From: an uncultured bacterium
GTDB taxonomy: Bacteria; Bdellovibrionota; Bacteriovoracia; Bacteriovoracales; CAZZBM01
Length of the DNA stretch: 64,000 nucleotides
NCBI GenBank assembly: GCA_964652255.1
Contig: CAZZBM010000001.1
Location: 530,985-594,984 of the forward strand
Reading direction: 5' to 3'
In this document: in pieces, positions 1 to 49,562 of the stretch
Position numbering within the stretch: position 1 is the stretch's first letter
How the letters are laid out: each line of letters opens with the position of its first letter
The notes under the pieces: model-generated
What the model was told of the DNA's origin: nothing
Databases searched by the model: none
What the model saw: only the letters and a program-made list of their open reading frames with translations
Translations under genes and position numbers: made by a program

Positions 1-931
1 GCTCTGAAAATTTTTCCTGAAGTGTTTTTAATACTGTGTTAATTTCTGTAGGATGATGAGCATAATCATCAAAAATTTTCTTTTTTTCATTAGAAAAAAT
101 AAGTTGTAGTCTTCTTTCTACTCCTAAAAAAGAAAAAAGTCTTTTTTGAATGAGAGAAAAGTTTAAGTGTCGAATTCTGCCAATACAAGTAGCAAAAAAA
201 GCATTTTTTAATTGATGGTCACCAAAAATTTGGAGTTGAATTTCACCAAGAATTTTTCCTTCTTCATAAAAAAGAAAAGAAGAAAGAGAAGTTTTTTTAT
301 AAGAAAATTTTTTTAATAACTTAGCTTCATCATAAAAATGAGTACTTTGTTTTTTTAGTTGTTCTAAGCTTGATTGTAACTTTTCAAAAGAGCCATAAAA
401 ATCAAGATGATCTCCTTCTAAATTAGTAAGAAGTAAAATATGAGGATGAAGCTTTAAAAAAGAAGGTTCTGATTCATCAATTTCTAGAATAGTATAAGAA
501 GAATTTGTTTCATAAAAATGATTTTGATCTTGAATGAGACTACCTCCTACAAAAGCATTATCTTCAGGAAACAGAGTTCTTAAAAGTGCTGTAGTAGAAG
601 TTTTTCCATGACTTCCCGTTACACCAATAATCTTTTGATCTTTTAAAAAAGAAGCTAAGAATTCACCTCGGGAATAGCATGGGTATTTTTTTTTTGCTTC
701 TAAATATTCTTCTGTGTGAGTGGCAACAGGAGTATAAACAACACAAGTAAGATCAGGGGGAAGTGAGTCTTGAGTTTGACTTTGATAAATGGGAATTCCT
801 AAAGCAAGGAGTTTGCGGGTATAGCTGTTAAAGTGATGATCAGATCCAGAAACTTGATAACCTTTTTTGTAACAAGCTAAAGCTAGTGCACTCATCCCCA
901 CCCCACCAATTCCAATAAAATGCACTCTCAT
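1..931 (-). CDS. murC: UDP-N-acetylmuramate--L-alanine ligase MurC, 3' end cut by the window edge
   Basis: Not in the ORF track because it runs off the edge. The reverse-strand ATG at 931-929 overlaps the murG stop (ATGA). Translation starts MRVHFIGIGGVGMSALA, contains the P-loop GVTGSHGKTSTT, and reads AHHPTEI near position 60. The frame stays open to position 1. Confidence 0.85.
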   Translation of the reverse strand, partial: MRVHFIGIGGVGMSALALACYKKGYQVSGSDHHFNSYTRKLLALGIPIYQSQTQDSLPPDLTCVVYTPVATHTEEYLEAKKKYPCYSRGEFLASFLKDQKIIGVTGSHGKTSTTALLRTLFPEDNAFVGGSLIQDQNHFYETNSSYTILEIDESEPSFLKLHPHILLLTNLEGDHLDFYGSFEKLQSSLEQLKKQSTHFYDEAKLLKKFSYKKTSLSSFLFYEEGKILGEIQLQIFGDHQLKNAFFATCIGRIRHLNFSLIQKRLFSFLGVERRLQLIFSNEKKKIFDDYAHHPTEINTVLKTLQEKFSE

Positions 932-1923
932 AAATTCATCTCTTCTTTAATTTTCATTGTTGCTGATTTTTGTACCTTAATGTCATATTTTAAATCAATC
1001 ATCAGGGGGTATTTTTCTAAAATTTCTTGAAGACAAATATCTTTTCCCCAAGATTCTTGAAGAATTTCTACTGGAAAATGAGCTTGTTGTTGAAAACTTT
1101 TTGCATTAATTTCTTGATGATTATTCATAGACTTTGACCATGGAATAAGAATACAAGGTTTTTGAATACAAAAAAGTTCAGCTAAAGTACTTGCACCGGC
1201 TCTGGCGATGATAAGATCAGCTCTTTGGCAAAAAGGAATAATATCTTCAATATAAGAGTAGCGATGATAAGAATCTTCGCTAAAATCTTTATGATGTTTT
1301 CCTGATTGATGTTCTATAATAAAACGACCCGTAGCTCTTAAGCCAAGAGTGATTTCATTTAAAAATTCTGATCCTAAACTTCCCCCAAGAACAAAAATTC
1401 TATTTTTATCCTGAGTGTTTACATGAAAGTTTGTTGTAAAAAATTCTTTACGAATAGGATTTCCTGTTAGGGTTTCTTTAAGAGACTCAAATTGAGTAAA
1501 AATTTTTTTAACAAAAGGTTTTAAAAGCTTATTAGATCGACCCATAATAGCATTTTGTTCTAATAAATAAAGAGGAATTCTTAAAATAAATCCACTAAGA
1601 ATGGGTCCAATGCTTGTATAACTTCCAATTCCTAAAATGGCTTTAGGTCTTTTAAAAAGAAAAAGAAAAAAACAATATAGAAAAGAATAAAAATAAAAAA
1701 TCAGAGAAAGAAAAAGATCTTTTTTTGTTTGATAACCTGTTAAAGGGAAAAAATAAGTTTTTTTCTTGGAAAGTAATTTTTCATCTAACTTCTTTTTACT
1801 AGCAATAAAATACACATCGTAATCTTGCTCTAGTTCCTGTGCCATAGCTAAAGCTGGATAGATGTGCCCCCCAGTTCCTCCCGCTGTTAAATAAATTCTA
1901 GGTTTTTTCTTTACTAATAACAT
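928..1923 (-). CDS. murG: Undecaprenyl-PP-MurNAc-pentapeptide GlcNAc transferase MurG
   Basis: N-terminal glycine loop LTAGGTGGHIYPALA. Lies between ftsW and murC in a dcw cluster. Confidence 0.9.
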   Translation of the reverse strand: MLLVKKKPRIYLTAGGTGGHIYPALAMAQELEQDYDVYFIASKKKLDEKLLSKKKTYFFPLTGYQTKKDLFLSLIFYFYSFLYCFFLFLFKRPKAILGIGSYTSIGPILSGFILRIPLYLLEQNAIMGRSNKLLKPFVKKIFTQFESLKETLTGNPIRKEFFTTNFHVNTQDKNRIFVLGGSLGSEFLNEITLGLRATGRFIIEHQSGKHHKDFSEDSYHRYSYIEDIIPFCQRADLIIARAGASTLAELFCIQKPCILIPWSKSMNNHQEINAKSFQQQAHFPVEILQESWGKDICLQEILEKYPLMIDLKYDIKVQKSATMKIKEEMNL

Positions 1924-2929
1924 ATATAATTCCTAGTAAACTAAAAGAGACTAATAAGGAAGAGCCCCCATAACTAAAAAAAGGAAGGGTTAATCCTTTT
2001 GTTGGTAATAATCCTAAACAAACAGCCATATTGGTAAAAGCTTGAAAAAATAAAACAAAAACAAGACTCATCCCTAAATAAGGATTTTTTTTTAATGAAA
2101 GATCTTTATAAAGAAGAAAAAAAAAAATAAAATAAGAAGTAACAAATAAAAAAACTCCTAAAAAACCAAGTTCTTCACCTAAAACACTAAATAAAAAATC
2201 ATTATGAGCCTCTGGTAGGTAAAAAAGTTTTTCATGACCATTTCCAAGCCCCACACCAGTGATTCCTCCCTTGGAAAAAGCTAAAAAAGATTGAATGATT
2301 TGAAAACCTTTATGATAAGGATCTTGCCAAGGATCAAGAAAAGAGAGAAATCTTTTAAGACGATAAGGTGCTATGAGAATAAGGCTTGAAATTAAGGTTA
2401 TGAAAGATAAAAAAGAAAGAAGAAGATGTTGCCAAGAAAAATATTTTAAAAAAAGAAAATAAAGAATAGAAAGTAAACATAAAACAAAAGTTCCAAAATC
2501 TGGCTGTAACAATAAAAGAATAAAAGGAAGAAAATAAACAATCCATAAAAAAGAATGTCTTTTTTTTTCAGTTAAAAAATCTAGAGCTAGTAGAGAAGAA
2601 ATCTTTAAAAATTCTCCTGGCTGCAAGCTATAACCAAAAAAATGAATCCATCTTTTTGATCCCTTTAAAGCATGAGGAAAAATAAAAGTAAGAATGATAA
2701 GGATTAAAACAAGAAGATGACTAGGGTAGAAAAACTTCTTTAAAAAAGAAAAAGATGCTCTTGAAATCATGAAAAAAGCTAGGATTCCAATAAGAGTAAA
2801 GAGTAACTGTCTGTAAATAAAGAAATGACCTGATTGGAAGTATTCCCTAGCATAGATATAACTAGAAGAATAAACCATGAGAAGCCCAAAAACTTGAAGA
2901 ATAAAGGCTAAGAAAAAAGAAAATTTCAT
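1898..2929 (-). CDS. ftsW: SEDS-family peptidoglycan polymerase / cell division protein FtsW
   Basis: Polytopic membrane protein with a conserved C-terminal GLLPTKGLTLPFFSYGGSS block. Position in the dcw cluster. Confidence 0.9.
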   Translation of the reverse strand: MKFSFFLAFILQVFGLLMVYSSSYIYAREYFQSGHFFIYRQLLFTLIGILAFFMISRASFSFLKKFFYPSHLLVLILIILTFIFPHALKGSKRWIHFFGYSLQPGEFLKISSLLALDFLTEKKRHSFLWIVYFLPFILLLLQPDFGTFVLCLLSILYFLFLKYFSWQHLLLSFLSFITLISSLILIAPYRLKRFLSFLDPWQDPYHKGFQIIQSFLAFSKGGITGVGLGNGHEKLFYLPEAHNDFLFSVLGEELGFLGVFLFVTSYFIFFFLLYKDLSLKKNPYLGMSLVFVLFFQAFTNMAVCLGLLPTKGLTLPFFSYGGSSLLVSFSLLGIIYVISKEKT

Positions 2930-4332
2930 AATTGAAAAATAAGCTTTTTGTACTGTTTTCCTTTTTCTTTGTAATCTCTAAAGCTATCTGTACTAGGAGC
3001 TCCTGGACAAAGAAGTATTTTTTCTCCACTTTTTGCTTTTTGATAAGCCACTAAAACAGCTTCTCCAAAACTACCTACTAAAAAACAAGCTTCTACATGA
3101 TCAGCAAAAAATCTATTCATTACCTCTTTGCATTCTCCCATCAAAATAAGAATTCTTACTTTATTTTTTAACACGGGACCATAAGGAGCAAAATTTTCTT
3201 CCGTTTCTTTACCACCAGCAATGACAATAAGAGATCCTTGAATGGCTTGAATAGCCTTAACAAACTCTTCCATGTTTTCAGCTTTGGCATGATTAAAAAA
3301 AGAAACTTTATTTTTAGTCACAACAAATTCTAGACGATGAGCAATGCTTGGAAAAAAATCAATAAGCTTTTGAATAGCCACATGACTTGTTTCCAGAAGA
3401 AGATTCACTAAAATGGCAGCTAATAAATTTTCTTTGTTCTCTTTTCCTTGTATAAGAGTTTTGTTGACTAGAAAAGTAGCATGTCCCTTGAGATGAGAAT
3501 AAATTTTTCTCTCTTCAAAAGAAATTCCTTTAAAAGTTTTTTCTTCTAAATTTAGAACTTGAAGGGATTTTCTTGTATACCAATATTTTTTCCCAGGGAT
3601 TTTTTTAATCATAGGGTGATCAAAAAGCTCATGATGACTTAAAACAATTTTTAAATCCTCTTCTTTAGAAAATAAAACAGGTTTAAAAAGAAGATCCATA
3701 TATTCTTCTATGGAGTTAAAACCATATTTTTTATACTGATCATCAACATTGGGATAAACAATGAGTTTTGTTTTGAAATGAGACTGATGTTTTAATTGCC
3801 AAGGAGAAACTTCTAAAACAATATAATCAGCTTTTTCTTCCTCTAAAAAATAAGAAATCAAAGGATTATCTTGATCTCCTCCTGAAAACACTTTTTTACC
3901 ATCATTTCTTAGAGCAAAAGCAATCATTTCAACAATGGTTGTTTGACCATAACTTCCACCCACTAAAATAAGTTCTTCTTTTAAAAATTTTAAAGGAAAA
4001 GATAACTCATCATAAACTTCAATTTTCTCTTTTCTAGCCGCTTGGAGTTCTTTTAGCTGAGAATCTACCCTAGAAGCATGAATAATAAGATCAGCTTCTA
4101 AAAAATCCTTTAATCGATGTTCTCCAAAAACAGTACTATGTTGCTCTGAAAGAAGTTTTTTTAGTTTTTTAATTTCCTTATTAAGATCAAAAATATGCTT
4201 AATATCTGTGATTTTAATCTGACAGTTAAGTTTTTGAAAAAGCTCGATATATTTAAAAGCAACTTCACTTAATCCAACAATTAAAATCTTCTTGTTTTTG
4301 TATTTATCAAAGACCTTGTAGTTCATAAACAA
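2926..4332 (-). CDS. murD: MurD-like UDP-MurNAc-L-Ala--D-Glu ligase with a divergent ATP-binding loop
   Basis: Lies between mraY and ftsW. N-terminal Rossmann-like ILIVGLSEV, AHRLEFV, and C-terminal LLCPGAPSTDSF align by eye with E. coli MurD. The P-loop reads GGSYGQTT instead of GSNGKST. Confidence 0.75.
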   Translation of the reverse strand: MFMNYKVFDKYKNKKILIVGLSEVAFKYIELFQKLNCQIKITDIKHIFDLNKEIKKLKKLLSEQHSTVFGEHRLKDFLEADLIIHASRVDSQLKELQAARKEKIEVYDELSFPLKFLKEELILVGGSYGQTTIVEMIAFALRNDGKKVFSGGDQDNPLISYFLEEEKADYIVLEVSPWQLKHQSHFKTKLIVYPNVDDQYKKYGFNSIEEYMDLLFKPVLFSKEEDLKIVLSHHELFDHPMIKKIPGKKYWYTRKSLQVLNLEEKTFKGISFEERKIYSHLKGHATFLVNKTLIQGKENKENLLAAILVNLLLETSHVAIQKLIDFFPSIAHRLEFVVTKNKVSFFNHAKAENMEEFVKAIQAIQGSLIVIAGGKETEENFAPYGPVLKNKVRILILMGECKEVMNRFFADHVEACFLVGSFGEAVLVAYQKAKSGEKILLCPGAPSTDSFRDYKEKGKQYKKLIFQL

Positions 4333-5218
4333 CCCCTAAAGTTGAACAAATAATAATAAAAGTAATGACGAAGAAAAAATAAGTAATTTTTTTCTCAGAC
4401 CATCCTTTTAATTGTAAGTGATGATGAAAAGGAGACATAAGAAAAATTCTTTTTTTTCTATATTTAAAAGATAAAACCTGTAAGATAACAGAAAGAGTTT
4501 CAAAAACAAAAATACTTCCAAAAATAATTAATAAAAATTCTTGTTGAACTAAAATAGAACAATAAGCAAGAAAAAAACCTAAAGGTAAAGATCCAGTATC
4601 GCCCATAAAGATTCTTGCTGGGTATTTATTATAGTAAAAAAAACCTAATCCTGACCCTAAAAAAATAGAAAAAGGAGTGAGGTGTTCAAGCTCTTCAATA
4701 AAAAACATAAAACCAAAAACAATCATTAAAGATAAACCCATAGCTAAACCATCTAATCCATCAGTGAGATTGACTGCATTGCTGGTTGCTACAAACATAA
4801 AAGCCCAAAGAAAGATCATTAAAGGACCAAGATAAACTCCTAGAAAACTTTTAGAAGTAATGGAAGAAAAATAAAGAGAAGAGCTAGTAATAAAAGCAAT
4901 AATCCACTGCAAAATAAATCTTAATTGAATAGAGAGTCCTTCTTTGTTGTTTTTTTTATACTTAAGATAGTCATCAACAAAGCCTAAGGCACCAAAAGCA
5001 CAAAGACCAAAGACTAGAAAAAGATGCTCTTGAGTAGGATAAAATAAGAGTAAAAAAATAAGAGGAAGAAGAAAGATAAAGCCCCCAAAAGTAGGAGTAG
5101 TTTTTTTATCAGTATAAGGAATAAATTCTCTTAAAGAATCAAAAATAGATTTTTTTTTTAAAAAAGTTAATAAAAAAAAACCTAAAATTAAACTTAAAAA
5201 TAGAGCCATTAAAAACAT
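4307..5218 (-). CDS. mraY: Phospho-N-acetylmuramoyl-pentapeptide transferase MraY
   Basis: Motifs TPTFGG, VDDYLKY, NAVNLTDGLDGLA, MGDTGSLPLG and SPFHHHL. Confidence 0.92.
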   Translation of the reverse strand: MFLMALFLSLILGFFLLTFLKKKSIFDSLREFIPYTDKKTTPTFGGFIFLLPLIFLLLFYPTQEHLFLVFGLCAFGALGFVDDYLKYKKNNKEGLSIQLRFILQWIIAFITSSSLYFSSITSKSFLGVYLGPLMIFLWAFMFVATSNAVNLTDGLDGLAMGLSLMIVFGFMFFIEELEHLTPFSIFLGSGLGFFYYNKYPARIFMGDTGSLPLGFFLAYCSILVQQEFLLIIFGSIFVFETLSVILQVLSFKYRKKRIFLMSPFHHHLQLKGWSEKKITYFFFVITFIIICSTLGVVYELQGL

Positions 5219-6405
5219 AAGGTCCCTAAGCTTAACACATAGTCTTTATCTTTGTGAGGTATTTTTTCATGACCTCTATCAAGGTAAGTTTCTTCACCCT
5301 TGCCAGCAATCACAATAAGGTCTAATTCTTGAGCCTCTTGAAAAACTTTTAAAATAGCTTCTTTCCTTTCTTTGATAAAAGGAACATTAAGATTGATCTC
5401 TTGATAAATATTATAAGGATCTTCACTTCTTGAATTATCTTCTGTGATGATAATTTGAGAAGCATATTTTTGAGCTATTTGACCCATAAGAGGTCTTTTT
5501 CCTCTATCTCTATCTCCACCACAACCAAAGATAAGATAATCTATTTTAGGTAAAGATTGTAAAAGTTTTTCTAAACCATCAGGAGTATGAGCGTAGTCAA
5601 TAATAATTCTTAGTTTTTTTCCTTCAAATTCAATATTAATTTGTTCACATCGACCGGGAATAGGTCGAATATTTTCTATTTTTGCTTCTAGGTTTAAACT
5701 TTCAACTAAAGCATAAGCTAGAGAAAAGTTTTTTTCTTGAAAAGTGTTTTGAAAAAAACTAGGAATATTTTTAGCTAAAGGAACTAAATAAGAAGAAGGA
5801 AATTTTTCATGAAGATCTTTTTCTGAAACAAATAAAGGATACTGACAATAATTTAAAATTTTTTTCTTAGTTTGAAAATAGTGTTCTAAGCTTTTATGAT
5901 AATCAAGATGATCTTGAGAAAAATTAGTCCAAGCAATTCTTTCAAAAGAAACACCATAAAATCTTTCTTGATCTAAAGCATGAGAAGAAACCTCTATAAA
6001 ACAATACCCTTTTCTTCCTTGCATAAGTTTTCTCCAAAGAAGATAAGGGGGAGAGGTATAATTAGTTTTTGTTAAAAACTCACCCTCATAGTAAAGACCC
6101 AAAGTTCCTAGATAATAACTTTGAGGCACCATTAAGTGAGCTAAAAAAGCTGTAGAAGTTTTTCCGTTGGTCCCAGTAATCCCAATAAACTTTAAATCAT
6201 GAGGATAATAAAAATCTGCTAATTTTTTTTGTAAAGGAAGAAAATCTTCTTTTTTTACATGAAAAATATGTTGTGAATTTAAATGAGTAGTTGAAAAAAT
6301 TAAAGGATGATTTGTTGAAAATTCTTCTTGATCTGTAAAAAGAATTTCATCAGATTGCCCTTCATTAAAACATAATCCTTTAATCATCATAGAAAGGATC
6401 TCCAA
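5209..6405 (-). CDS. murE: UDP-MurNAc-L-Ala-D-Glu--2,6-diaminopimelate ligase MurE (compact form)
   Basis: Motifs GITGTNGKTST, EVSSHALDQ, NFSQDHLDYH, DYAHTPDGL, GCGGDRDRGKRPLMG, DNSRSEDP and AGKGEETY. Confidence 0.92.
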   Translation of the reverse strand: MEILSMMIKGLCFNEGQSDEILFTDQEEFSTNHPLIFSTTHLNSQHIFHVKKEDFLPLQKKLADFYYPHDLKFIGITGTNGKTSTAFLAHLMVPQSYYLGTLGLYYEGEFLTKTNYTSPPYLLWRKLMQGRKGYCFIEVSSHALDQERFYGVSFERIAWTNFSQDHLDYHKSLEHYFQTKKKILNYCQYPLFVSEKDLHEKFPSSYLVPLAKNIPSFFQNTFQEKNFSLAYALVESLNLEAKIENIRPIPGRCEQINIEFEGKKLRIIIDYAHTPDGLEKLLQSLPKIDYLIFGCGGDRDRGKRPLMGQIAQKYASQIIITEDNSRSEDPYNIYQEINLNVPFIKERKEAILKVFQEAQELDLIVIAGKGEETYLDRGHEKIPHKDKDYVLSLGTLCF

Positions 6406-8185
6406 GATAAACCTTTAACTGCCCTTTAGCAAGTCTCTCCTCCTTATAAATAACACCCTGAGAACCTTCAAAGATTAGATGAGGATTGATTTTTAAAGCT
6501 TCTTGCTGAGTGAGTCCCTTAAGAGATTTAGTTGATGTGGGTAAAAAAGTTTTTTGATCTAAAAGAGAAAGATATTTATTTTTGGGTTCTTGCAAAAAAA
6601 GATACTCTGCAATTTCTTTAAAGACTGGAGCAGCTAGTTTGCCTCCAAAATAGTTTTTCACCTGGGGCTCATCCAAATAGACATAAATTAAAAACCTCTC
6701 TTGAGTATTGGTAGAATAACCAATAAAACTAGAAACATAACCACTATACTGACCATTCTTGCTTTTTTGAGCTGTGCTGGTTTTACCAGCAATAGTGACA
6801 TATTTCATTTGAGCTGATCGACCAGTCCCTTCTAAGGTTACTCTCTCTAAAAGTTCATTCATTTTAGAAGCAATCTCCTTAGAAAGAACTCGTTTAAAAG
6901 GTTTCCTTTTATTTTTTAAAAGAGTTAATTCAGGTAATAAACCATTGGTGGCAAAAACAAGAAATCCTCTAATAACTTGTAAAGGTGTTAAGGCTAAACC
7001 CTGACCAAAAGTTAGCGTAGCCAACTCCAAAGAGCCCTCCCTACTAGGCTTTAATCCCTTAGACTCTCCAGAAAGCTCAATGCCAGTTTTTTCAAAAAAA
7101 CCAAAAAGAGAAAGCTTTTTTACAAGATCTTTTTGATTAAATCGTTGACCAATTTTAACCATTCCAATATTAGAACTCTTTTTAAGAATATCACTCACAC
7201 TTAACCACTGAAATTTTTGAAATTGAGCTTCTTTGATTTTATGTTGATCTATGAGATAAAATCCATTTTCACAAAAAATTTCCGTTTCAGGAGAAATAAG
7301 TCCTTCATTGAGACCCAAGGCAATAATAAAAGGCTTAAGAATGGAGCCAGGTTCAATAGGTTCTGTCATTAAATTTAAATTCCATCTTTCGGAAAAGTTT
7401 CTTAAGTTAGGATTAAAATCAGGAAGATGAGCTAGAGCTAAAATTTCTCCTGTATAAACATCAACAATGGCACCACCAGCAGCTATGCTTTTTGATTCTT
7501 TTAAAGCTTTGTTTAATATTTGCTCAAGTTGTTCCTGCATTTCTTTGGACAGAGAAAGTTCTAAAGATTCTGGTTCTTGACCCTTACCCCTCTCTTGAAT
7601 TTTAATAGCACGCCCCTTGGCATCTTTATAATAAGTAAAGGAAGAAGGAACACCTTTTAAGTTTTCTTCAAAAAAATATTCTAATCCGGCTAAACCTTGA
7701 GCATCTTGACCTACTGTTCCTAAACCTTTTGAAAAAAGATTTTCATAAGGGTAATATCTTTTCCAGGTTTCCTCTAGGTAAATTCCTTCTAATTTCTTTA
7801 GCTCTTCTTTCTCTTTATCCTTTAATAAAATGGAACGAGCTAAAAAAGTATATTTTTTTCTTGTTTCAATTTCTTTTTTAAATTTTTTAAAATCAAGATT
7901 TAAAACAAGGGAAGCTTTTTTTAAAGAATCTAAAAAAAGATCATTTTTTTTAGGAATCAAAAAAATATTATAAGATTTAATGTTCATAGCTAAGAGATGC
8001 CCATCACGATCATAGATAAGACCCCTAGGGGGGAAATACTTTACTTCACGAACAATTTGTTGATGAGCATACTGGGTTAAATCTTTTTTTTTATAAACTT
8101 GAAGATAAAAAGCTTTCATAAGAATAGAGCCATAAAAAAAAGTAAAAAAATAAAAAGTAATTTTTAGTTTTTTTCTAAGATCCAT
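6380..8185 (-). CDS. ftsI: Class B penicillin-binding protein / division transpeptidase FtsI
   Basis: N-terminal TM anchor. Transpeptidase motifs S-I-L-K (SxxK), SSN, and K-T-S in place of KTG. dcw position after ftsL. Confidence 0.88.
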   Translation of the reverse strand: MDLRKKLKITFYFFTFFYGSILMKAFYLQVYKKKDLTQYAHQQIVREVKYFPPRGLIYDRDGHLLAMNIKSYNIFLIPKKNDLFLDSLKKASLVLNLDFKKFKKEIETRKKYTFLARSILLKDKEKEELKKLEGIYLEETWKRYYPYENLFSKGLGTVGQDAQGLAGLEYFFEENLKGVPSSFTYYKDAKGRAIKIQERGKGQEPESLELSLSKEMQEQLEQILNKALKESKSIAAGGAIVDVYTGEILALAHLPDFNPNLRNFSERWNLNLMTEPIEPGSILKPFIIALGLNEGLISPETEIFCENGFYLIDQHKIKEAQFQKFQWLSVSDILKKSSNIGMVKIGQRFNQKDLVKKLSLFGFFEKTGIELSGESKGLKPSREGSLELATLTFGQGLALTPLQVIRGFLVFATNGLLPELTLLKNKRKPFKRVLSKEIASKMNELLERVTLEGTGRSAQMKYVTIAGKTSTAQKSKNGQYSGYVSSFIGYSTNTQERFLIYVYLDEPQVKNYFGGKLAAPVFKEIAEYLFLQEPKNKYLSLLDQKTFLPTSTKSLKGLTQQEALKINPHLIFEGSQGVIYKEERLAKGQLKVYLGDPFYDD

Positions 8186-8421: not shown

Positions 8422-9269
8422 TTTTCAAGAACTCTAAGTTTTGCACTTCTCGATCTTGGATTAAGATCAATCTCTTCTTCACTTGGAGTAACAGGTTTTT
8501 TTGTAAGAATCTTTCCTTCACTGGATTTAAAAAAGTGTTTAACAATTCTATCTTCTAAAGAATGAAAACTAATCACTAAGAGTCTCCCCCTCTTGTTCAA
8601 AGACTGAAACAGTAAAGGAAGTGTTGTCTCTAAATATTCAAGTTCGTCATTGATATGAATTCTTAAAGCTTGAAATACTTTTGTTGCAGGATGAATTTTA
8701 TGATATCCAGGAAAAAGATTCTTCACAAACTCAGCTAAATCTAAAGTTGTTAAAAAAGGTTTTTTTTTTCTTCTTAATACTATCTGCTTAGCAATTCTTC
8801 TAGAAGATCTCTCTTCTGCATAGTAAAAAAATAAATCAGCTAAGTCTTTTTCAGAATAAGTTTGTAAAACTTCACTGGCAGTTAAAGAATTTTTCTGATT
8901 CATCCTCATATCTAATGGACCTTCTTTTTGAAAAGAAAATCCTCTCTGTTGAGATTCTAATTGATGTGATGAAACTCCTATATCCATTAGAATAAAGTCT
9001 GGATGATACGTTTTTTTTTCTAAAAAAGAAGGAACATCTTTAAAGTTTAAATGATGAGCTTGAAATCTTTGGTCTTGAATCTTTTTTGCATTCTCAATAG
9101 ACTCTAAGTCTTGGTCAAAAGCTATAATTTGAGCTTTTGATTTTTTTAATAAAGCTAGACTATGACCACCAGCTCCTAGAGTTAAATCTAAAATAAGTTT
9201 TTCTTGACCTTGAAGATAAGAAAGAACTTCTTGAAGTAAAACTGGGGTATGATCTTTATACAAAATCAT
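8418..9269 (-). CDS. rsmH: 16S rRNA (cytosine1402-N4)-methyltransferase RsmH (MraW)
   Basis: Motifs HTPVLLQEV, DLTLGAGGHS, DIGVSSHQL and ISFHSLEDR. Sits at the head of the dcw cluster. Confidence 0.9.
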   Translation of the reverse strand: MILYKDHTPVLLQEVLSYLQGQEKLILDLTLGAGGHSLALLKKSKAQIIAFDQDLESIENAKKIQDQRFQAHHLNFKDVPSFLEKKTYHPDFILMDIGVSSHQLESQQRGFSFQKEGPLDMRMNQKNSLTASEVLQTYSEKDLADLFFYYAEERSSRRIAKQIVLRRKKKPFLTTLDLAEFVKNLFPGYHKIHPATKVFQALRIHINDELEYLETTLPLLFQSLNKRGRLLVISFHSLEDRIVKHFFKSSEGKILTKKPVTPSEEEIDLNPRSRSAKLRVLEK

Positions 9270-9672
9270 GAAAATTTATAGTAGAACCAAGCGATTTAGT
9301 TTGCTTTTCAAAAAAGTTTTGAGATTCTTCAAATTCAAATTTTTCTTTACAGTGTATACAGCATTCAGCTGTAGGTCTAGCAAGAAGTCGTTCATATTTA
9401 ATCCCTTCACCACAAGAGATGCAAATACCAAATTCTTCTTTTTCAAATTTTTCTAAAGATTTTTCGACTTTTTTTAAATAAAGAATATCCCTATTTCTAA
9501 ATCTTAAAACTTCATTCCTAAAATATTCAGTAGTTGCTGAATCTACCTCATCGCCAGTTTTTCTTTCTAGAATGGTTTCATAACTGTTTTTTCCTAAAAG
9601 AAGAAGTTTTCTCTTTTCTTCTAAAAGCTTGTTTTTTAAATTCTTTAATTGCAGAGTTGTTAATTTTTTCAT
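9256..9672 (-). CDS. dksA: DksA/TraR-family C4 zinc-finger RNA polymerase-binding factor
   Basis: Coiled-coil tip DEVDSA (DxxDxA), then RNRD, and a zinc finger C-I-S-C ... C-I-H-C, aligning by eye with E. coli DksA. Confidence 0.8.
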   Translation of the reverse strand: MKKLTTLQLKNLKNKLLEEKRKLLLLGKNSYETILERKTGDEVDSATTEYFRNEVLRFRNRDILYLKKVEKSLEKFEKEEFGICISCGEGIKYERLLARPTAECCIHCKEKFEFEESQNFFEKQTKSLGSTINFHDFV

Positions 9673-10241
9673 AAATGAATCCTCATCTCTTTTCTAATTT
9701 CTTGTATAAGAGATGAAAGAGTTTCAAAAACTCCTTCACCTTTGCTAGCAATAGCTTCTTGACTTAAATACTGTTCACAATGAAGTAATTTTTTTAGTTT
9801 TGAAGTTGGATAAATATCTTTTAAATCCCTTTTATTTAATTGAATAATCATGGGAATTTTTAAGTTTTCTTCTGTCATTATTTTTTGTAAATCCTGTAAA
9901 CTTTCTTCATTATCTTTAAGTCTTTTTCTTTGAGAATCAACAACAAAAACTATGCCATCTAAGCCTTGTAGAATGAGTTCCCGGATTTCTTCATTGATGA
10001 GTTGACCTGGAATTGTATATAAATGAATTTTAACATTAAAACCACCAAAAGAATCTCCTTGAACAGGAAGAAAATCAAAAAATAAAGTTCTTTCATTTTC
10101 TTTTTTTAAAAGATTGAGATCTAAGTCTGGTTGTTGAGAATAGTAAATATATTGTAAATTAGTAGTTTTTCCACCAAGTCCAGGGCCAAAATAAAGAATT
10201 TTTAAATGAATCTCCTTAGAAGAAAAATTTACAAAGGACAT
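9669..10241 (-). CDS. mglA: Ras-like polarity GTPase MglA
   Basis: The N-terminus MSFVNFSSKEIHLKILYFGPGLGGKTTNLQYIY is near-identical in pattern to Myxococcus MglA. Also NKRD (G4). The stop overlaps the dksA start by 4 nt. Confidence 0.85.
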   Translation of the reverse strand: MSFVNFSSKEIHLKILYFGPGLGGKTTNLQYIYYSQQPDLDLNLLKKENERTLFFDFLPVQGDSFGGFNVKIHLYTIPGQLINEEIRELILQGLDGIVFVVDSQRKRLKDNEESLQDLQKIMTEENLKIPMIIQLNKRDLKDIYPTSKLKKLLHCEQYLSQEAIASKGEGVFETLSSLIQEIRKEMRIHL

Positions 10242-12260: not shown

Positions 12261-12923
12261 ATGTATTATTTCTTTTTTTTATCCTCTTGTCTTAGTTCTT
12301 CCTATCGCCCCTTAGCTTCTTCTTTCACTCTGAAAGAAATTTTAAATGATTATAAAAATGAGCCGTTTTATAGGCTTTATTATGATTTAAATGAATTTAA
12401 AAATTTTGAGAATATCTTTACAGATACAGAGAGAAAAATACTTCATGAGTTTACTTTTAGTGAATGGAATGAACAACATTTTAATCTTTTTCTTAAGCCT
12501 TTGGTTGAACAAAATTTTTCTTATTTGGGAAAGATAGACTTGTATTACTTTTTTATTATCAATCTAGAGAAAAATATTTTATCATTTAAGGATGATTTGT
12601 TAAAAATAAAAACCAAGAAAGATTTTTTTCAATTACTTCTAACTTATAAAAAATATTATGAACAAGAATATGATGAAAATGAGTTAAATATTTTCTATAA
12701 TATTTCTGATTCTAATTATCAAAATTTAATAAAAAAAAAATATTTTCAAGAAAATTTTTCAAATTCTCAAAAAGAATCTATTGATTTTTTAAATCAAGTT
12801 TATAGAAGTCTTTCTTATGTCAACATTCTTAGCTTGATAGAGGCTTATAAAGAACAAGGTACCGTATCTTTAGAAGCATCATTTGGAAAAGTTCTCAAGT
12901 TAAGATATAAAATTTCTTTTTAA
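12261..12923 (+). CDS. Hypothetical lipoprotein
   Basis: N-terminus MYYFFFLSSCLSS has a lipobox-like LSSC. Asn/Lys/Phe-rich with no recognisable motif. Confidence 0.5.
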   Translation: MYYFFFLSSCLSSSYRPLASSFTLKEILNDYKNEPFYRLYYDLNEFKNFENIFTDTERKILHEFTFSEWNEQHFNLFLKPLVEQNFSYLGKIDLYYFFIINLEKNILSFKDDLLKIKTKKDFFQLLLTYKKYYEQEYDENELNIFYNISDSNYQNLIKKKYFQENFSNSQKESIDFLNQVYRSLSYVNILSLIEAYKEQGTVSLEASFGKVLKLRYKISF

Positions 12924-13921
12924 GGAGATGAATATCCTAGTTGAGAGTCAGTATTTAATGTTTTTTTTCTAAAGTAGCTTTTAATTAATGTCATTGGATT
13001 ATTATGGGGATTAAAAGAATCGTTTATATTTATACAACCTTTAAGATTTAAAAAAATAAGATTAGAAAGAATAAATTGATCATTATCATCGATTAATTCT
13101 TTAAAATGATTTTGAGTTAAAAAATAATTTTTTGATAAAATTAAATGTTGTAAATTCGAAGCTTTTTTCAAAAGAGATAAAACTTGTTTTTTTGAGTCAT
13201 CTTTTCCTAAGCTTTGAAAAGTGATATCTAGAATTTTTAATTTTTCGATAAAAGGATTTAAAAAATCTAAGTTTTGAATAGGACCATAAAGTTTATTTTT
13301 GTTAGTTTCAATGTTTAAATCAGGTCCTTGAAGATAGAAAAACTCAATATTTTTTGTTTCCGGTCCTATAAAATCAATTTTTGAAAAAATATTATCACTT
13401 AGGTCTAGTCTTTTTAAGGAAGAAGAATTAATTTCTTTTAAAGACTTTAATTGATTATGATCTAAGTTTAGAGCTTGCAATTTGGAAAATTGAGAAAAAT
13501 CAAAAAAACATTCTGTTAGTTGAGAAAAAGACAAAGAAAGATTTTGTAAACTGTTTTTAAAAGGGAGCAAAACTTCTAGGGCAGAGCAATCAAATTTTGC
13601 ATGAGAAAATTCTACTGTTTTTAATATAGTGTCTTGATGTTTTTTAATTTGTGCTTGAGCAAGTAGTTCAAAATTTTCTTTTAATTTTTCTAGATTATCC
13701 TTGGTATTGATGGCATGATATTTTATTTCTAAAGTTTCTAGATTTGTAAATTTTTCAAGTCCATCTAAAGAATTTATTTTATTTTTTGTGTCTTTTTGAT
13801 ATAAGCTGATGTTCTCGACATCATAGTTATCTTTAAATTGGTTAATTATACTAAATTTTGTATCATTGTTATGATAGTTTTGTGAAAAAACATTATATGT
13901 TAAAATAAAAAAAATCATCAT
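12920..13921 (-). CDS. Secreted leucine-rich-repeat (LRR) protein
   Basis: Hydrophobic N-terminus. Repeated LxxLxLxxNxL units (LETLEIKYH, LQNLSLSFSQL, LQALNLDHNQLKSL, LKRLDLSDNIFSKI, LQHLILSKN). Confidence 0.75.
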   Translation of the reverse strand: MMIFFILTYNVFSQNYHNNDTKFSIINQFKDNYDVENISLYQKDTKNKINSLDGLEKFTNLETLEIKYHAINTKDNLEKLKENFELLAQAQIKKHQDTILKTVEFSHAKFDCSALEVLLPFKNSLQNLSLSFSQLTECFFDFSQFSKLQALNLDHNQLKSLKEINSSSLKRLDLSDNIFSKIDFIGPETKNIEFFYLQGPDLNIETNKNKLYGPIQNLDFLNPFIEKLKILDITFQSLGKDDSKKQVLSLLKKASNLQHLILSKNYFLTQNHFKELIDDNDQFILSNLIFLNLKGCININDSFNPHNNPMTLIKSYFRKKTLNTDSQLGYSSP

Positions 13922-13973: not shown

Positions 13974-14381
13974 TTACTTTTTTCTCACAAGTATTTGATT
14001 ATCTTTAAAAGATTCTACAATGAGAATCTCGCCTTTTTTAGCAGGGGTTCCCTGAGCTTGCCAAATAGTTCCCATACATGACAAAAAACCTGAGCCAGAA
14101 AAATCTTCTTGTAAAAGAATCTCTTCATGTAGGGGATTTCTGGCAAAAGGATCTTCTTTTTGTTTTCTTTTTTTTAGAAGATATCGAGCAAGAAGAGATC
14201 CAATAAGAACAAAAAAAGAAAAAGAAGAAAAAAGAATATAAAGATTAGAAGTAAAAAAACCAATAAGAGAAGTAAGAAAAGATCCTATCCCAAAGAAAAG
14301 AAGAAAGTAAGTAAAGCTTGTTAATTCTAAAATTAAAAAAAATAATCCTAGAAGAAAAAAAGCTAAAACTGGTGAAATCAT
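13974..14381 (-). CDS. NfeD-family membrane protein
   Basis: Three N-terminal TM helices plus a short soluble C-terminal domain. Overlaps (4 nt) and follows an SPFH gene, the classic NfeD-SPFH operon. Confidence 0.7.
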   Translation of the reverse strand: MISPVLAFFLLGLFFLILELTSFTYFLLFFGIGSFLTSLIGFFTSNLYILFSSFSFFVLIGSLLARYLLKKRKQKEDPFARNPLHEEILLQEDFSGSGFLSCMGTIWQAQGTPAKKGEILIVESFKDNQILVRKK

Positions 14382-15304
14382 TCTTTGTCCTTTTTTATGG
14401 TTTCAAGAAGGGCTAGGAGAGGAGCAAAACTTTGCTGTGCTTCTAAGGGAAGAAAAAGAACTTTATGATTAGGTGAAGATGCCATCTCTTTTAAAGACTC
14501 AACATATTTTAAAGACATAAAATATCTCATAGTTTTATCATTGCTTGACTCAGCAACGCTTTTAATAGCATTAGCTTCAGCTATGGCTAATCTTTCTTTG
14601 ATTTCAGCTTCTTTTTCTGCTGCTATTCTTTTTCCTTCAGCTTCTACAATAGTTGCCATTTTTTGACCTTCTGCAGTAAGAATTGCTGATTGTTTCTCTC
14701 CTTCAGATTTTAAAATAGCTGCTTGTCTTAGTCCCTCAGCTTCTAAAATATTAGCTCTTTTATCTCTTTCTGCCTTCATTTGTCTTGCCATGGAATTTAC
14801 TAAATCTTGAGGAGGTTTAATGTCTTTAATCTCTACTCTTGTCACTTTTGTTCCCCAAGGACTTGTAGCCTCATCAATCACTTGAAGTAACTTAGCATTA
14901 ATAGCTTCTCTGTGAGAGAGGAGCTCATCAAGGTCCATAGATCCCATTACAGTTCTTAAACTGGTCATAGAAAGATTTAAAATAGCTTGTCTAAGATTTT
15001 CAACACCATAAACAGCTTTGGAAGGTTCTAAGATTCTAAAAAAAACTATACCATCGGTTTGAACAACAGCATTATCTTTTGTAATAACATCTTGAGAGGG
15101 AACTTGAAGAACTGTTTCCATGAGAGAAACCTTTTGTCTTATATTCTCAATAAAAGGACTAATAAATTGAATGCCTGGAGTAAGGGTTGTTTTATACTGA
15201 CCAAATCTTTCACAAACATAGTGATAACCTTGTGGCACAATCACAATCATCTTACTTAAAAAAGTAAGAAGAAAAACAACTAAAATAATAATAAAATAAG
15301 TCAT
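14378..15304 (-). CDS. SPFH/band-7 (stomatin/QmcA-like) protein
   Basis: One TM, then an SPFH core (TKDNAVVQTDGIVFFRI, RVEIKDIKPP) and an Ala/Glu-rich coiled-coil tail. Start moved to the ATG at 15304 because the track start (15379) lies inside tRNA-Arg. Confidence 0.85.
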   Translation of the reverse strand: MTYFIIILVVFLLTFLSKMIVIVPQGYHYVCERFGQYKTTLTPGIQFISPFIENIRQKVSLMETVLQVPSQDVITKDNAVVQTDGIVFFRILEPSKAVYGVENLRQAILNLSMTSLRTVMGSMDLDELLSHREAINAKLLQVIDEATSPWGTKVTRVEIKDIKPPQDLVNSMARQMKAERDKRANILEAEGLRQAAILKSEGEKQSAILTAEGQKMATIVEAEGKRIAAEKEAEIKERLAIAEANAIKSVAESSNDKTMRYFMSLKYVESLKEMASSPNHKVLFLPLEAQQSFAPLLALLETIKKDKE

Positions 15305-15317
15305 AAAGCTCCTTTTA

Positions 15318-15394
15318 TGGCGCAACCGGTACGATTCGAACGTACGACCTTCTGATTCGTAGTCAGATGCTCTATCCAACTAAGCTACGGCTGC
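15318..15394 (-). tRNA. tRNA-Arg (anticodon ACG), CCA encoded
   Basis: Hand-folded cloverleaf on the reverse strand: acceptor GCAGCCG/CGGTTGC, D arm GCTTAGTTGGATAGAGC, anticodon stem TCTGA/TCAGA with loop CTACGAA, T arm GTACG-TTCGAAT-CGTAC, 3' GCCA. Confidence 0.93.
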
Positions 15395-16047: not shown

Positions 16048-16887
16048 ATGAATTTAAAGGATCATTTTCCTAATTTAAAAGAATTAGATCTATCCAGAAA
16101 TAATATTAAAGATTTAAACTTTTTAAACAATCTTACAAAATTAGAAAAACTTGATGTTAGCGGCAATCCTCTTGATGATCTGGTTATTGAGAATCACCCT
16201 TCTCTTAGGGAATTTATTTTTATGTCTAAACCAGGTTATTTTAAAAGATTTTCCTTTAAAAACTTACCTTCTTTAGAAAAAATTTATGTTACTATTGACG
16301 AAGAAAGTCCAGCTGGGTCTTTCATTTATCCAAGAGAACCTTTTGAGTTAAGTTTTTTACCTAGCTTAAAAACACTATATATGGACGCTATTTCTCATTA
16401 TAAATTTCATCTTGAAGGAGATTTTTCTGCTTTAAAATATTTAACTTATAGACAGACTAAAGTTCGTTATCTTGATTTTCTTTATTTTTTTCCTAATATT
16501 GAAGTTTTGGATCTTTCTTATAATGACATTGATGAATTTAACCCTTTAACATATTTAAAAAAATTAAAAGTTTTAGATCTCACTTTTAATCCCTTAATTG
16601 ATCTTCCAGAAAATTTATCTCCCGTTTTGCAGATTGTTTTTTTAGATAGAAGTACTGTGACAGGACTTCATCCTCTTTTAGCGATTCCCTCTGTTGAATT
16701 TATTTCTGCTGATTCATGCTCTTGGATTAAAAAGATGATTCCAGAATATAAACCTATTATGGGGGAAAAAGAAGTTAGTCTTTATGGGTCTTTTAGTGGA
16801 TTAACAACACAGGAAAGAAAAACTATTAATGTAGAAAAAAAAGCTCTAGAAGAAGTAGGAGTTAGGGTTTATACTGATGATTTTTAA
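16048..16887 (+). CDS. LRR protein (frame is open and LRR-like from 15934)
   Basis: LRR units LKELDLSRNNIKDLNFL, LEKLDVSGNPL, IEVLDLSYNDIDEFNPL and LKVLDLTFNPL. The upstream in-frame sequence KKILDLSSLNIEYLNYLKTFDTVEILILKNNNLTSKEL is also LRR-like. Confidence 0.75.
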   Translation: MNLKDHFPNLKELDLSRNNIKDLNFLNNLTKLEKLDVSGNPLDDLVIENHPSLREFIFMSKPGYFKRFSFKNLPSLEKIYVTIDEESPAGSFIYPREPFELSFLPSLKTLYMDAISHYKFHLEGDFSALKYLTYRQTKVRYLDFLYFFPNIEVLDLSYNDIDEFNPLTYLKKLKVLDLTFNPLIDLPENLSPVLQIVFLDRSTVTGLHPLLAIPSVEFISADSCSWIKKMIPEYKPIMGEKEVSLYGSFSGLTTQERKTINVEKKALEEVGVRVYTDDF

Positions 16888-44208: not shown

Positions 44209-44233
44209 GAGTTTTTTTTTATCTCTCACTTAA
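44200..44233. terminator. Hairpin between convergent genes (ttaagtgagagt / atctctcacttaa, T-rich loop)
   Basis: 12-bp stem read directly. Flanked by A/T runs on both sides. Confidence 0.55.
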
Positions 44234-44246
44234 AAATTAAGATGAC

Positions 44247-49543: not shown

Positions 49544-49562
49544 ACTTGTTTTTAGTCTTCTT

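What the first reader, a model, noticed from the sequence alone, without database searches (positions are those of the whole stretch)
2926..4332. MurD-like ligase has lost the invariant P-loop lysine and other catalytic residues
The 468-aa protein is collinear with E. coli MurD by eye:
- ILIVGLSEV / VVIIGLGLTG
- LEVSPWQL / LELSSFQL
- AHRLEFV / PHRFEVV
- LLCPGAPSTDSF / LLSPACASLDQF

Its ATP-binding loop, however, is GGSYGQTT where all Mur ligases have G-x-x-G-K-[ST]-[ST]. The Gln codon CAA lies at 3945-3943. The Mg-binding NVTEDHMDRY region reads NVDDQYKKY (His to Gln), GGNIG reads GGDQD, and the GGDGK region reads GGKETE. In the same cluster MurC (GSHGKTST) and MurE (GTNGKTST, DHLDYH) are fully canonical, so this is not general drift. 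The gene may encode a pseudo-enzyme, a ligase with altered chemistry, or a scaffold.
Basis: partly seen in the sequence, partly recalled or inferred. Interest (0 to 1): 0.58.

Follow-up and report, generated by a model that had tools for sequence, protein, structure and literature searches.

The report
MurD without its catalytic lysine
This cell-wall enzyme gene really does lack its "invariant" ATP-loop lysine. Most of its odd active site is shared by a whole class of predatory bacteria (Bacteriovoracia), where the gene is among the most conserved cell-division genes, so it is a working protein that no longer depends on textbook Mur-ligase chemistry.

Summary
Window 2926-4332(-) encodes a full-length MurD orthologue at the mraY-murD-ftsW position, and its P-loop reads GGSYGQTT (Gln codon CAA at 3945-3943).

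The framing needs to change. The organism belongs to Bacteriovoracia (Bdellovibrionota). All 82 species representatives of that class carry a remodelled MurD:
- K115->Arg and N138->Thr in 82/82, and T321->Glu in 75/82.
- D182, H183, K198, K348 and S415 are among the least conserved columns.
- UDP- and adenosine-binding residues stay invariant.
- MurC, MurE and MurF in the same loci keep canonical motifs.

Class MurD is as conserved as FtsZ, FtsA and MraY (0.70 mean pairwise identity, against 0.39-0.52 for MurC/E/F).

The window lineage adds Arg->Gln, D317->His and T16->Val. Close strains toggle Gln (CAA) and Lys (AAA), yet murD has the lowest dN/dS of seven dcw genes (0.04-0.06). A separate lineage carries Leu at the same site inside a normal dcw cluster.

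The gene is therefore not decaying, and the Walker-A basic residue is dispensable for whatever is selected. My preferred reading (about 0.42) is a ligand-binding, non-catalytic or weakly catalytic MurD derivative. A re-wired active ligase is nearly as likely (about 0.36). I could not test for a second D-Glu ligase. I found no literature on this.

The parts
2926..4332 (-). murD orthologue (MurD-like protein). 468 aa from TTG at 4332; the more likely start is ATG at 4326, giving 466 aa.
   Evidence: TIGR01087 scores 216.8 bits against a cut-off of 211.95, and three Pfam MurD/Mur-ligase domains are present. The AF2 model has pLDDT 80 and pTM 0.82, and its top 33 PDB fold matches are all MurD. An SD-like AGGGG lies upstream of the ATG.
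3937..3960 (-). Degenerate P-loop GGSYGQTT. Gln (CAA, 3945-3943) sits at the Walker-A Lys115 position.
   Evidence: The column is K in 143/144 canonical representatives and R in 82/82 Bacteriovoracia species.
4258..4275 (-). N-domain loop GLSEVA, replacing GxGxTG (E. coli G14-T16, the UDP-diphosphate contact). T16->Val.
   Evidence: The class keeps T16 in 81/82 species.
4177..4209 (-). TDIKHIFDLNK: D35 is kept, followed by the class-specific conserved IFDLNK insertion.
3868..3882 (-). GGDQD in place of GGNIG (N138->Asp; the class has Thr).
3733..3750 (-). NVDDQY in place of NVTEDH (D182->Gln, H183->Tyr).
3682..3708 (-). EEYMDLLFK: Leu at the position of the carbamylated Lys198.
3277..3294 (-). 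NHAKAE in place of NDSKAT (D317->His, K319 kept, T321->Glu).
3199..3216 (-). GGKETE in place of GGDGKS (K348->Thr; Lys at position 346).
4307..5218 (-). mraY. It overlaps the murD start by about 20-26 nt.
   Evidence: TIGR00445 scores 253.7 bits.
1898..2929 (-). ftsW. It overlaps the murD stop by 4 nt.
   Evidence: TIGR02614 scores 318.7 bits.
5209..6405 (-). murE with canonical GTNGKTS and DHLD motifs. It is directly followed by mraY, with no murF between them.
928..1923 (-). murG.
2..946 (-). murC, cut by the window edge. It has canonical GSHGKTS and GDHLD motifs.
6380..8185 (-). ftsI (class B PBP), the upstream member of the same dcw operon.

Best explanation
Shown. The gene is the orthologue of murD, sitting between mraY and ftsW in the dcw cluster, in an AT-rich member of class Bacteriovoracia with closely packed, overlapping genes.

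The whole class carries a remodelled MurD. The residues around the reaction centre are replaced or freed to vary:
- The Walker-A Lys115 is Arg.
- Asn138 is Thr.
- Thr321 is Glu.
- The Mg2 ligands His183 and Lys198, and the D-Glu contacts Asp182, Lys348 and Ser415, are no longer conserved.

The distal UDP- and adenosine-binding residues and the three-domain fold are kept. The protein as a whole is as conserved as FtsZ, FtsA and MraY.

The window's lineage went further, with Arg->Gln (toggling with Lys among close strains), Asp317->His and Thr16->Val. Even so, its murD has the lowest dN/dS in the cluster.

Inferred. The function under selection no longer depends on the canonical Walker-A-lysine, two-metal acyl-phosphate chemistry. 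I think the protein most likely acts as a ligand-binding, non-catalytic or only weakly catalytic MurD derivative. In that role it would be a pseudo-ligase or scaffold subunit, co-translated with MraY and FtsW, that holds or hands on UDP-MurNAc-peptide precursors or organises the cytoplasmic peptidoglycan-precursor machinery. D-Glu addition would then be supplied some other way, by an unidentified enzyme or by salvage. Residual or re-wired ligase activity is not excluded.
For: Orthology and fold. There is one murD per dcw locus in more than 80 Bacteriovoracia species.

Class-wide remodelling:
- R115 and T138 in 82/82 species.
- D182, H183, K198, K348 and S415 fall at the 4th-22nd percentile of conservation, in a protein whose median column is 91% conserved.
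- The same columns are 86-99% conserved in 144 canonical representatives.

Controls: MurC, MurE and MurF of the same loci keep GxxGK[ST][ST] and DHxD. The canonical K-type sister form sits in its own dcw cluster in other Bdellovibrionota.

High conservation: mean pairwise identity is MurD 0.704, against FtsZ 0.698, FtsA 0.711, MraY 0.689, MurC 0.518, MurE 0.394 and MurF 0.385, across 47 species.

The basic residue is dispensable:
- The window, L093 and L094 carry CAA (Gln), while L002 carries AAA (Lys).
- Over the same comparisons, murD dN/dS is 0.04-0.06, the lowest of 7 genes.
- An independent Arg->Leu (TTA) is kept in two diverged species (L095, L097) with a complete dcw cluster. There MurD is still more conserved than FtsZ.
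- No compensating new Lys or Arg appears.

In the window lineage, ligand-contact residues are substituted at the background rate: 4 of 12, against 34% of all class-conserved columns.
Against: - MurC, MurE, MraY, MurG, FtsW and FtsI are intact and under purifying selection. The pathway therefore still needs a D-Glu-adding step, and no alternative enzyme was found. I could only inspect +-10 kb around murD and this 64-kb window.
- A small genome keeping both a dead MurD and a second ligase is less parsimonious than one atypical but active MurD.
- In the class, Arg115 is invariant, and E157, T116/T117, N268, N271, R302, D317 and K319 are conserved. That pattern looks like a nucleotide site still in use.
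- The class motifs that replace the canonical ones are themselves conserved (GGTSD, NIxExY, GGKDxE, NDSKxE), as would be expected of a re-wired active site.
- No biochemical data exist for any member.
Confidence: 0.42

Rival explanations
1. [quoted passage not shown] Phosphate and transition-state stabilisation would be supplied from other positions, for example K319, K346, class-specific conserved Lys/Arg/His residues, or Arg115 in the class standing in for the lost second metal site. The analogy is WNK kinases, which lack the canonical catalytic Lys but use a relocated one.
For: - There is a single murD at the canonical locus in every species examined, including cultured Bacteriovorax.
- It is under the strongest purifying selection in the cluster.
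- E157, T116/T117, N268, N271, R302 and K319 are retained, as are the UMA contacts D35 and Q162.
- The rest of the de novo pathway is canonical and constrained.
- 69 class-specific invariant residues could form a new catalytic constellation.
- It passes the curated MurD equivalog cut-off.
Against: - Position 115 tolerates Arg, Lys, Gln and Leu without loss of constraint elsewhere, and no compensating basic residue appears.
- Five reaction-centre and D-Glu-contact columns are among the most variable in the protein. That is hard to square with conserved chemistry on a conserved substrate.
- The window lineage also lost D317 and T16, and it does not keep the class's His-rich insert.
Confidence: 0.36
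2. It is a ligase with changed substrate or chemistry. Examples would be a different amine (the pocket gains two invariant Glu residues, at 321 and 349, and loses Lys348), L-Glu as in MurD2, or a different nucleotide or energy source.
For: The D-Glu contacts are changed: T321->Glu, S349->Glu is invariant in the class, and K348 and D182 are lost. Published work shows that D182, K348 and K319 control Glu stereospecificity in MurD and MurD2 (PMC8788868).
Against: - The MurD2 signature (Glu at 182, Arg at 348, an adjacent murL) is absent. Position 182 is K/R/N/T, position 348 is N/I/T, and the downstream gene is ftsW.
- Variable residues at 182, 348 and 415 argue against a specific new substrate pocket at those positions.
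- MurE is canonical and presumably still expects a D-Glu-terminated substrate.
Confidence: 0.12
3. It is a decaying pseudogene or an assembly or sequencing artefact in a reduced genome.
For: The genome is AT-rich (29% GC) and fast-evolving, with tightly packed overlapping genes. The window protein differs from the class consensus at 34% of class-conserved columns.
Against: - The ORF is intact and full-length, and the sequence is identical in an independent assembly.
- dN/dS is 0.04-0.06 within the lineage and at most 0.26 against L002, with the lowest dN of the cluster.
- MraY, MurG and MurC diverge from the class just as much, at 29-34% of conserved columns.
- Gln is shared by three diverged lineage members.
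Confidence: 0.02
4. The loss of catalytic residues is a private event of this one gene in this one genome. This is the implicit framing of the first reader.
For: Gln115, His317, Val16 and Asp138 are restricted to the window lineage.
Against: The changes at H183, N138, T321, K348 and K115 are shared by 82/82 (75/82 for T321) GTDB Bacteriovoracia species representatives and by 116/123 nearest database homologues. K198 is lost only in part of the class: Lys is retained in 48/82 species representatives and 59/123 homologues.
Confidence: 0.05

Closest known systems
[quoted passage not shown]
   Same: Three-domain fold, collinear over the full length. The best sequence matches (E = 6e-26 to 3LK7) and best structural matches are all MurD. 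It occupies the same dcw position. It retains D35, G114, T116/T117, E157, Q162, N268, N271, R302, K319 and S415.
   Different: K115->Gln, N138->Asp, D182->Gln, H183->Tyr, K198->Leu, D317->His, T321->Glu, K348->Thr, T16->Val. The TIGR01087 score is 217 bits, against 426 for the canonical Bdellovibrionota sister.
Bacteriovoracia-type MurD (annotated simply as MurD in Bacteriovorax sp. Seq25_V, DB6_IX and about 500 MAG species; not described as a distinct form in the literature I could search)
   Same: This is the closest family, at 41-46% identity. It shares the IFDLNK insertion, the YWY(S/T)RKS motif, E321, K346, the loss of H183 and K348, and the same synteny (dnaX-recR-arf-rsmH-ftsL-ftsI-murE-...-mraY-murD-ftsW).
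   Different: The class has invariant Arg115, Thr138, Asp317 and Thr16, and a His-rich insert (GTHFHxRRIHSNIHYHSEF). The window lineage has Gln/Lys, Asp, His and Val/Gly at those four positions and lacks most of the histidines. murF is missing from its cluster.
MurD2/MurL alternative pathway (Xanthomonas; PMC8788868)
   Same: [quoted passage not shown]
   Different: MurD2 keeps the ATP machinery, has Glu197 and Arg358 at those positions, and is paired with the epimerase MurL. None of these applies here.
Pseudoenzymes, and enzymes with relocated catalytic residues (for example WNK 'with-no-lysine' kinases). This is a functional analogy only, from my own knowledge.
   Same: A conserved fold and ligand-binding residues, with the canonical catalytic Lys absent and strong purifying selection.
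   Different: A different superfamily. For this protein neither inactivity nor a relocated catalytic residue has been demonstrated.

Membership tests
MurD (TIGR01087 / EC 6.3.2.9) | Three-domain MurD architecture and fold | tested here: met
   Pfam MurD-like_N, Mur_ligase_M and Mur_ligase_C are all matched. In the AF2 model's Foldseek search, ranks 1-33 are all MurD, with TM 0.55-0.70.
MurD (TIGR01087 / EC 6.3.2.9) | Score above the curated equivalog cut-off | tested here: met
   216.8 bits against a cut-off of 211.95, so only marginally. The canonical sister scores 426 and the class 279-281.
MurD (TIGR01087 / EC 6.3.2.9) | Orthologous position between mraY and ftsW in the dcw cluster | tested here: met
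MurD (TIGR01087 / EC 6.3.2.9) | Walker-A P-loop GxxGK[ST][ST] (Lys115) | tested here: not met
   The loop reads GSYGQTT.
MurD (TIGR01087 / EC 6.3.2.9) | Mur-ligase invariants E157, H183, N268, N271, R302, D317 (the invariant set is recalled from the Bouhss et al. mutagenesis literature, which I did not re-read) | tested here: not met
   E157, N268, N271 and R302 are present. H183->Tyr and D317->His.
MurD (TIGR01087 / EC 6.3.2.9) | Carbamylated Lys198 (Mg2 site) | tested here: not met
   Leu at this position.
MurD (TIGR01087 / EC 6.3.2.9) | D-Glu contacts D182, T321, K348, S415 | tested here: not met
   The residues are Gln, Glu, Thr and Ser, so only S415 is kept. The role of D182 and K348 is taken from PMC8788868.
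MurD (TIGR01087 / EC 6.3.2.9) | UMA contacts T16, D35, S71, N138, Q162 | tested here: inconclusive
   D35 and Q162 are kept. T16->Val, S71->Ala and N138->Asp.
MurD (TIGR01087 / EC 6.3.2.9) | ATP-dependent D-Glu ligase activity | not testable with these tools
   This needs an enzyme assay or complementation.
Pseudoenzyme (inactive homologue kept by selection) | Loss of residues required for catalysis in the parent family | tested here: met
Pseudoenzyme (inactive homologue kept by selection) | Purifying selection on the gene | tested here: met
   dN/dS is 0.04-0.06, the lowest of 7 dcw genes. Class identity is 0.70.
Pseudoenzyme (inactive homologue kept by selection) | The activity is supplied by another gene or route | not testable with these tools
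   Whole genomes could not be searched. No second Mur ligase lies within +-10 kb of murD in more than 80 loci, or within the 64-kb window.
Pseudoenzyme (inactive homologue kept by selection) | Demonstrated lack of activity | not testable with these tools
   This needs biochemistry.
MurD2 (L-Glu ligase of the MurD2/MurL pathway) | Glu at position 182, Arg at position 348, adjacent murL | tested here: not met
   The residues are Gln and Thr, and the downstream gene is ftsW.
Bacteriovoracia-type MurD (defined here) | Arg115, Thr138, Glu321, Lys346, the IFDLNK insertion, the WY[ST]RKS motif and the His-rich insert | tested here: inconclusive
   Glu321, Lys346, IFDLNK and YWYTRKS are present. Arg115, Thr138 and the His-rich insert are absent. 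In an NJ tree the lineage branches at the base of the class.

The most novel reading that the evidence does not exclude
Across the whole class Bacteriovoracia (about 500 species, including cultivable predators with ordinary murein), the dcw-encoded 'MurD' is no longer the D-Glu ligase. On this reading it is a hyper-conserved pseudo-ligase with a new essential role, and D-Glu is added to UDP-MurNAc-L-Ala by an as-yet-unrecognised enzyme or by a prey-dependent salvage route.
Probability: 0.25. Interest if true: 0.88.

Novelty: new variant of a known kind. Interest (0 to 1): 0.68.

Why it matters
The Walker-A lysine, His183 and the carbamylated lysine are treated as invariant across Mur ligases and underpin MurD inhibitor design. 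Here a whole bacterial class, with cultured members, replaces or frees these residues only in MurD, while conserving the protein as tightly as FtsZ. Natural variants carry Gln or Leu at the 'essential' lysine position.

Either outcome changes something. If the protein is active, Mur-ligase chemistry can run on a different catalytic constellation. If it is not, an essential peptidoglycan step in these predators is done by something unknown, and MurD has acquired a new essential role.

Both possibilities can be tested directly with one recombinant protein and a complementation assay. The result also warns that automated 'MurD' annotation, which this protein passes by 5 bits, hides a functionally divergent family.

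Tried and rejected
- **Second murD, mpl or murF.** I looked in the 64-kb window and in +-10 kb around murD in more than 80 Bacteriovoracia loci. Only MurC, MurD, MurE and MurF turned up, and no murF or murB in the window.
- **Is the class 'MurC' really an Mpl?** That would allow a salvage bypass. Rejected: TIGR01082 scores 505 bits against 182 for mpl.
- **MurD2/MurL.** Rejected: the signature residues are wrong and there is no adjacent epimerase. The two small ORFs after murD in L010 match no family.
- **A compensating relocated Lys or Arg in the Gln and Leu variants.** None is shared.
- **Misalignment as the cause.** Rejected: phmmer, MAFFT and hmmalign all agree.
- **Literature.** MurD with Bacteriovorax, Halobacteriovorax or Bdellovibrio, and 'Mur ligase' with 'pseudoenzyme', returned nothing relevant.
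- **Organism name.** The source genome is not among the GTDB representatives, and database entries carry no name. GroEL places it in Bacteriovoracia.
- **Structure model.** Coordinates are not exposed, so I could not measure distances from candidate replacement residues to the ATP site.
- **Names for the other eroded MurD clusters.** None were available.
Full report
**1. What is at the coordinates**

Window 2926-4332 (minus strand) is an intact ORF of 468 codons from TTG. The ATG two codons downstream (4326) has an AGGGG Shine-Dalgarno-like motif in front of it and matches the public gene call of 466 aa, so it is the likelier start.

The ORF lies in a tightly packed dcw operon: rsmH, ftsL, ftsI, murE, mraY, murD, ftsW, murG, murC. 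It overlaps mraY by about 20-26 nt and ftsW by 4 nt.

It has all three MurD/Mur-ligase Pfam domains. It passes NCBI's MurD equivalog model only narrowly, at 216.8 bits against a cut-off of 211.95. An AlphaFold2 model (pLDDT 80, pTM 0.82) finds MurD crystal structures as its 33 best PDB matches.

**2.

Three independent alignments agree on how the residues map onto E. coli MurD. These are phmmer against solved MurD structures, MAFFT with homologues, and hmmalign to a profile built only from canonical MurDs.

| E. coli MurD residue | Window residue | Window motif |
|---|---|---|
| K115 | Gln | GGSYGQTT (CAA at 3945-3943) |
| N138 | Asp | GGDQD |
| D182 / H183 | Gln / Tyr | NVDDQY |
| K198 | Leu | EEYMDLLFK |
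| D317 | His | NHAKAE |
| T321 | Glu | NHAKAE |
| K348 | Thr | GGKETE |
| T16 | Val | GLSEVA |

The Gln is not an error. An independent assembly is identical (L001), and related strains carry the same CAA codon.

MurC has GSHGKTS and GDHLD, and MurE has GTNGKTS and QDHLD.

**3. The organism and the real scope of the anomaly**

The 123 closest database homologues, and the 80 best loci from one genome per GTDB species, are all Bacteriovoracia: Bacteriovoracaceae, Halobacteriovoraceae, and cultured Bacteriovorax sp. Seq25_V and DB6_IX. The window's GroEL is 74-78% identical to theirs. Upstream synteny (dnaX-recR-arf-rsmH) is shared.

The window's own lineage is known only from metagenomes, including activated sludge. 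It is AT-rich (29% GC) with tightly packed, overlapping genes, and is fast-evolving.

In every Bacteriovoracia locus there is exactly one murD, at the ordinary position, and it carries most of the 'losses'. Across 82 species representatives:
- K115 is Arg in 82/82.
- N138 is Thr in 82/82.
- T321 is Glu in 75/82.
- H183 is never His.
- D182, H183, K198, K348 and S415 sit at the 4th-22nd percentile of column conservation, in a protein whose median column is 91% conserved.

In the 144 nearest non-class cluster representatives the same columns are K 143/144, N 141, H 135, K 133, T 140 and K 134.

The columns that contact the distal parts of the substrates stay invariant or nearly so in the class. 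These are T16, D35 and Q162 for UDP-MurNAc-L-Ala, and G114, T116/T117, E157, N268, N271, R302, D317 and K319 for the nucleotide.

MurC, MurE and MurF in the same loci keep canonical P-loops and DHxD motifs. The closest canonical MurDs belong to other Bdellovibrionota and sit in their own dcw clusters, so the class form descends from an ordinary MurD. The family-model score drops stepwise from 426 bits (sister) to about 280 (class) to about 216 (window lineage).

**4. Selection**

The remodelled MurD is not drifting. In 47 species that have all nine genes, mean pairwise identity is as follows:

| Protein | Mean pairwise identity |
|---|---|
| FtsA | 0.711 |
| MurD | 0.704 |
| FtsZ | 0.698 |
| MraY | 0.689 |
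| FtsW | 0.52 |
| MurC | 0.52 |
| MurB | 0.46 |
| MurE | 0.39 |
| MurF | 0.385 |

Between the window and its 65%-identical relative L002, murD and ftsW have the lowest dN of six genes. dN/dS is at most 0.26 with dS near saturation.

Among three closer members of the lineage (L002, L093, L094), murD dN/dS is 0.04-0.06. That is the lowest of seven dcw genes, the others being 0.05-0.18.

The window protein differs from the class consensus at 34% of class-conserved columns. MraY (34%), MurG (33%) and MurC (29%) differ as much, so the lineage is generally fast-evolving and is not degrading murD in particular.

**5. The Walker-A basic residue is dispensable**

Within the window lineage the codon is CAA (Gln) in the window, L093 and L094, and AAA (Lys) in L002 and P0123. 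These proteins are 91-99% identical to one another. Parsimony puts Gln at the base of the lineage.

Independently, two species nested among ordinary Arg-type Bacteriovoracaceae carry Leu (TTA). They have a complete ftsI-murE-murF-mraY-murD-ftsW-murG-murC-murB-ftsQAZ cluster. Their MurD proteins are 94% identical to each other, more than their FtsA (93.6%), FtsZ (93.0%) or MurC (88.6%).

In neither case does a new Lys or Arg appear that could take over.

In the window lineage, 4 of the 12 class-invariant ligand-contact residues are substituted (T16, R115, T138, D317). That is the background rate, so the active site enjoys no special protection.

**6. Interpretation**

Several things are shown:
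- The gene is the murD orthologue.
- Its unusual active site is mostly a class-wide trait.
- It is under strong purifying selection.
- Position 115 can be Arg, Lys, Gln or Leu.

What follows is inference. The pattern has reaction-centre and D-Glu-contact residues free to vary, distal ligand contacts and the whole surface tightly conserved, and the Walker-A residue exchangeable. That is what one expects of a homologue that still binds its ligands but is selected for something other than canonical catalysis.

I therefore favour a non-catalytic or weakly catalytic, ligand-binding MurD derivative that works within the precursor-synthesis machinery. Its translational coupling to mraY and ftsW fits that role. 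Confidence is about 0.42.

The main rival, at about 0.36, is that it is still the D-Glu ligase with a re-wired site. Four points support it:
- The rest of the de novo pathway is intact and constrained.
- No alternative enzyme was seen.
- Arg115 and the nucleotide contacts are invariant in the class.
- The replacement motifs (GGTSD, NIxExY, GGKDxE, NDSKxE, and 69 class-specific invariant residues including a His-rich insert) are themselves conserved.

A changed substrate is possible, since the pocket gains two Glu residues. The MurD2 signature and its MurL partner are absent, however. A pseudogene or artefact is excluded.

**7. Limits**

- I could not search whole genomes for a second D-Glu ligase, mpl, murI or murF.
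- I could not obtain model coordinates.
- No biochemical data exist for any member.
- The literature library returned nothing on this feature. That means it was not found there, not that it is unknown.
- I did not run the conservation comparison against other Mur ligases in other bacterial classes as a control.

**8. Verdict**

The finding is real and more interesting than first framed. It points to a class-wide, previously unremarked variant of an essential, drug-targeted enzyme family. The window's lineage is the extreme case, with Gln at the 'invariant' lysine.

Noticed in passing
window 5209-5218 (murE/mraY junction); also L002-L007, L093, L094: murF is missing between murE and mraY in the window lineage, although most of the other Bacteriovoracia dcw loci examined have it there. 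No murF or murB homologue occurs anywhere in the 64-kb window. FtsI still needs D-Ala-D-Ala donors, so murF is presumably elsewhere in the genome, or the pathway is unusual.
   Followed up: partly
L095:10001-11380 and L097:964-2343: There is an independent Arg->Leu (TTA) replacement at the MurD P-loop position (GSFGLTT) in two diverged Bacteriovoracaceae species. Both have a complete, normal dcw cluster and flagellin nearby. MurD remains the most conserved protein of that cluster.
   Followed up: yes
class MurD, e.g. L008:10001-11383 (between E. coli residues about 250-257); window 3490-3560 region: The class has a conserved His-rich insert, GTHFHxRRIHSNIHYHSEF, with five near-invariant His residues. 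It could be a metal site. The window lineage mostly lacks it (GISFEERKIYSHLKGHATF).
   Followed up: partly
proteins P0126, P0134, P0140, P0142, P0161, P0170, P0208, P0222, P0237: 12 of the 144 nearest non-class MurD cluster representatives also have at least 3 of 13 key residues changed (H183, K198, K319, E157; one has Arg115). Erosion of the MurD reaction centre therefore recurs in other uncultured lineages. No organism names were available.
   Followed up: partly
window 12920-13921(-), 16048-16887(+), 20121-20951(-): Three leucine-rich-repeat proteins occur in an AT-rich genome with tightly packed, overlapping genes. This hints at a host- or prey-interaction lifestyle different from typical free-living predators.
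   Followed up: no
window 17088-18077(-), 28119-29777(-), 29779-30771(-): A GH3 NagZ-like hexosaminidase (peptidoglycan recycling), GlmS, and an adjacent hexapeptide-repeat transferase (GlmU/LpxD-like) are present. Amino-sugar and murein metabolism is therefore retained.
   Followed up: no
window 9256-10241(-): An Arf-family small GTPase and a DksA-like zinc-finger protein lie immediately upstream of rsmH. The Arf-like gene at this position is conserved in other Bacteriovoracia loci (L008, L010, L093, L094).
   Followed up: no
window 5209-6405(-): MurE is short (398 aa here and 388 aa in relatives, against 444-491 aa elsewhere) and has no Pfam hit for the N-terminal domain. Across the class, MurE and MurF are the fastest-evolving dcw proteins, at about 0.39 mean identity.
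   Followed up: partly
window 15321-15394(-) and ORF 14378-15379(-): A tRNA overlaps the 5' end of the mechanically called Band_7/SPFH ORF (TTG start). The true start of that gene must lie further downstream.
   Followed up: no
window 38940-51357(+): There is a large respiratory cluster: cytochrome b, multihaem cytochrome c, COX1/2/3, CtaA/CtaB and SCO1. Aerobic respiration is kept despite the tightly packed gene layout.
   Followed up: no
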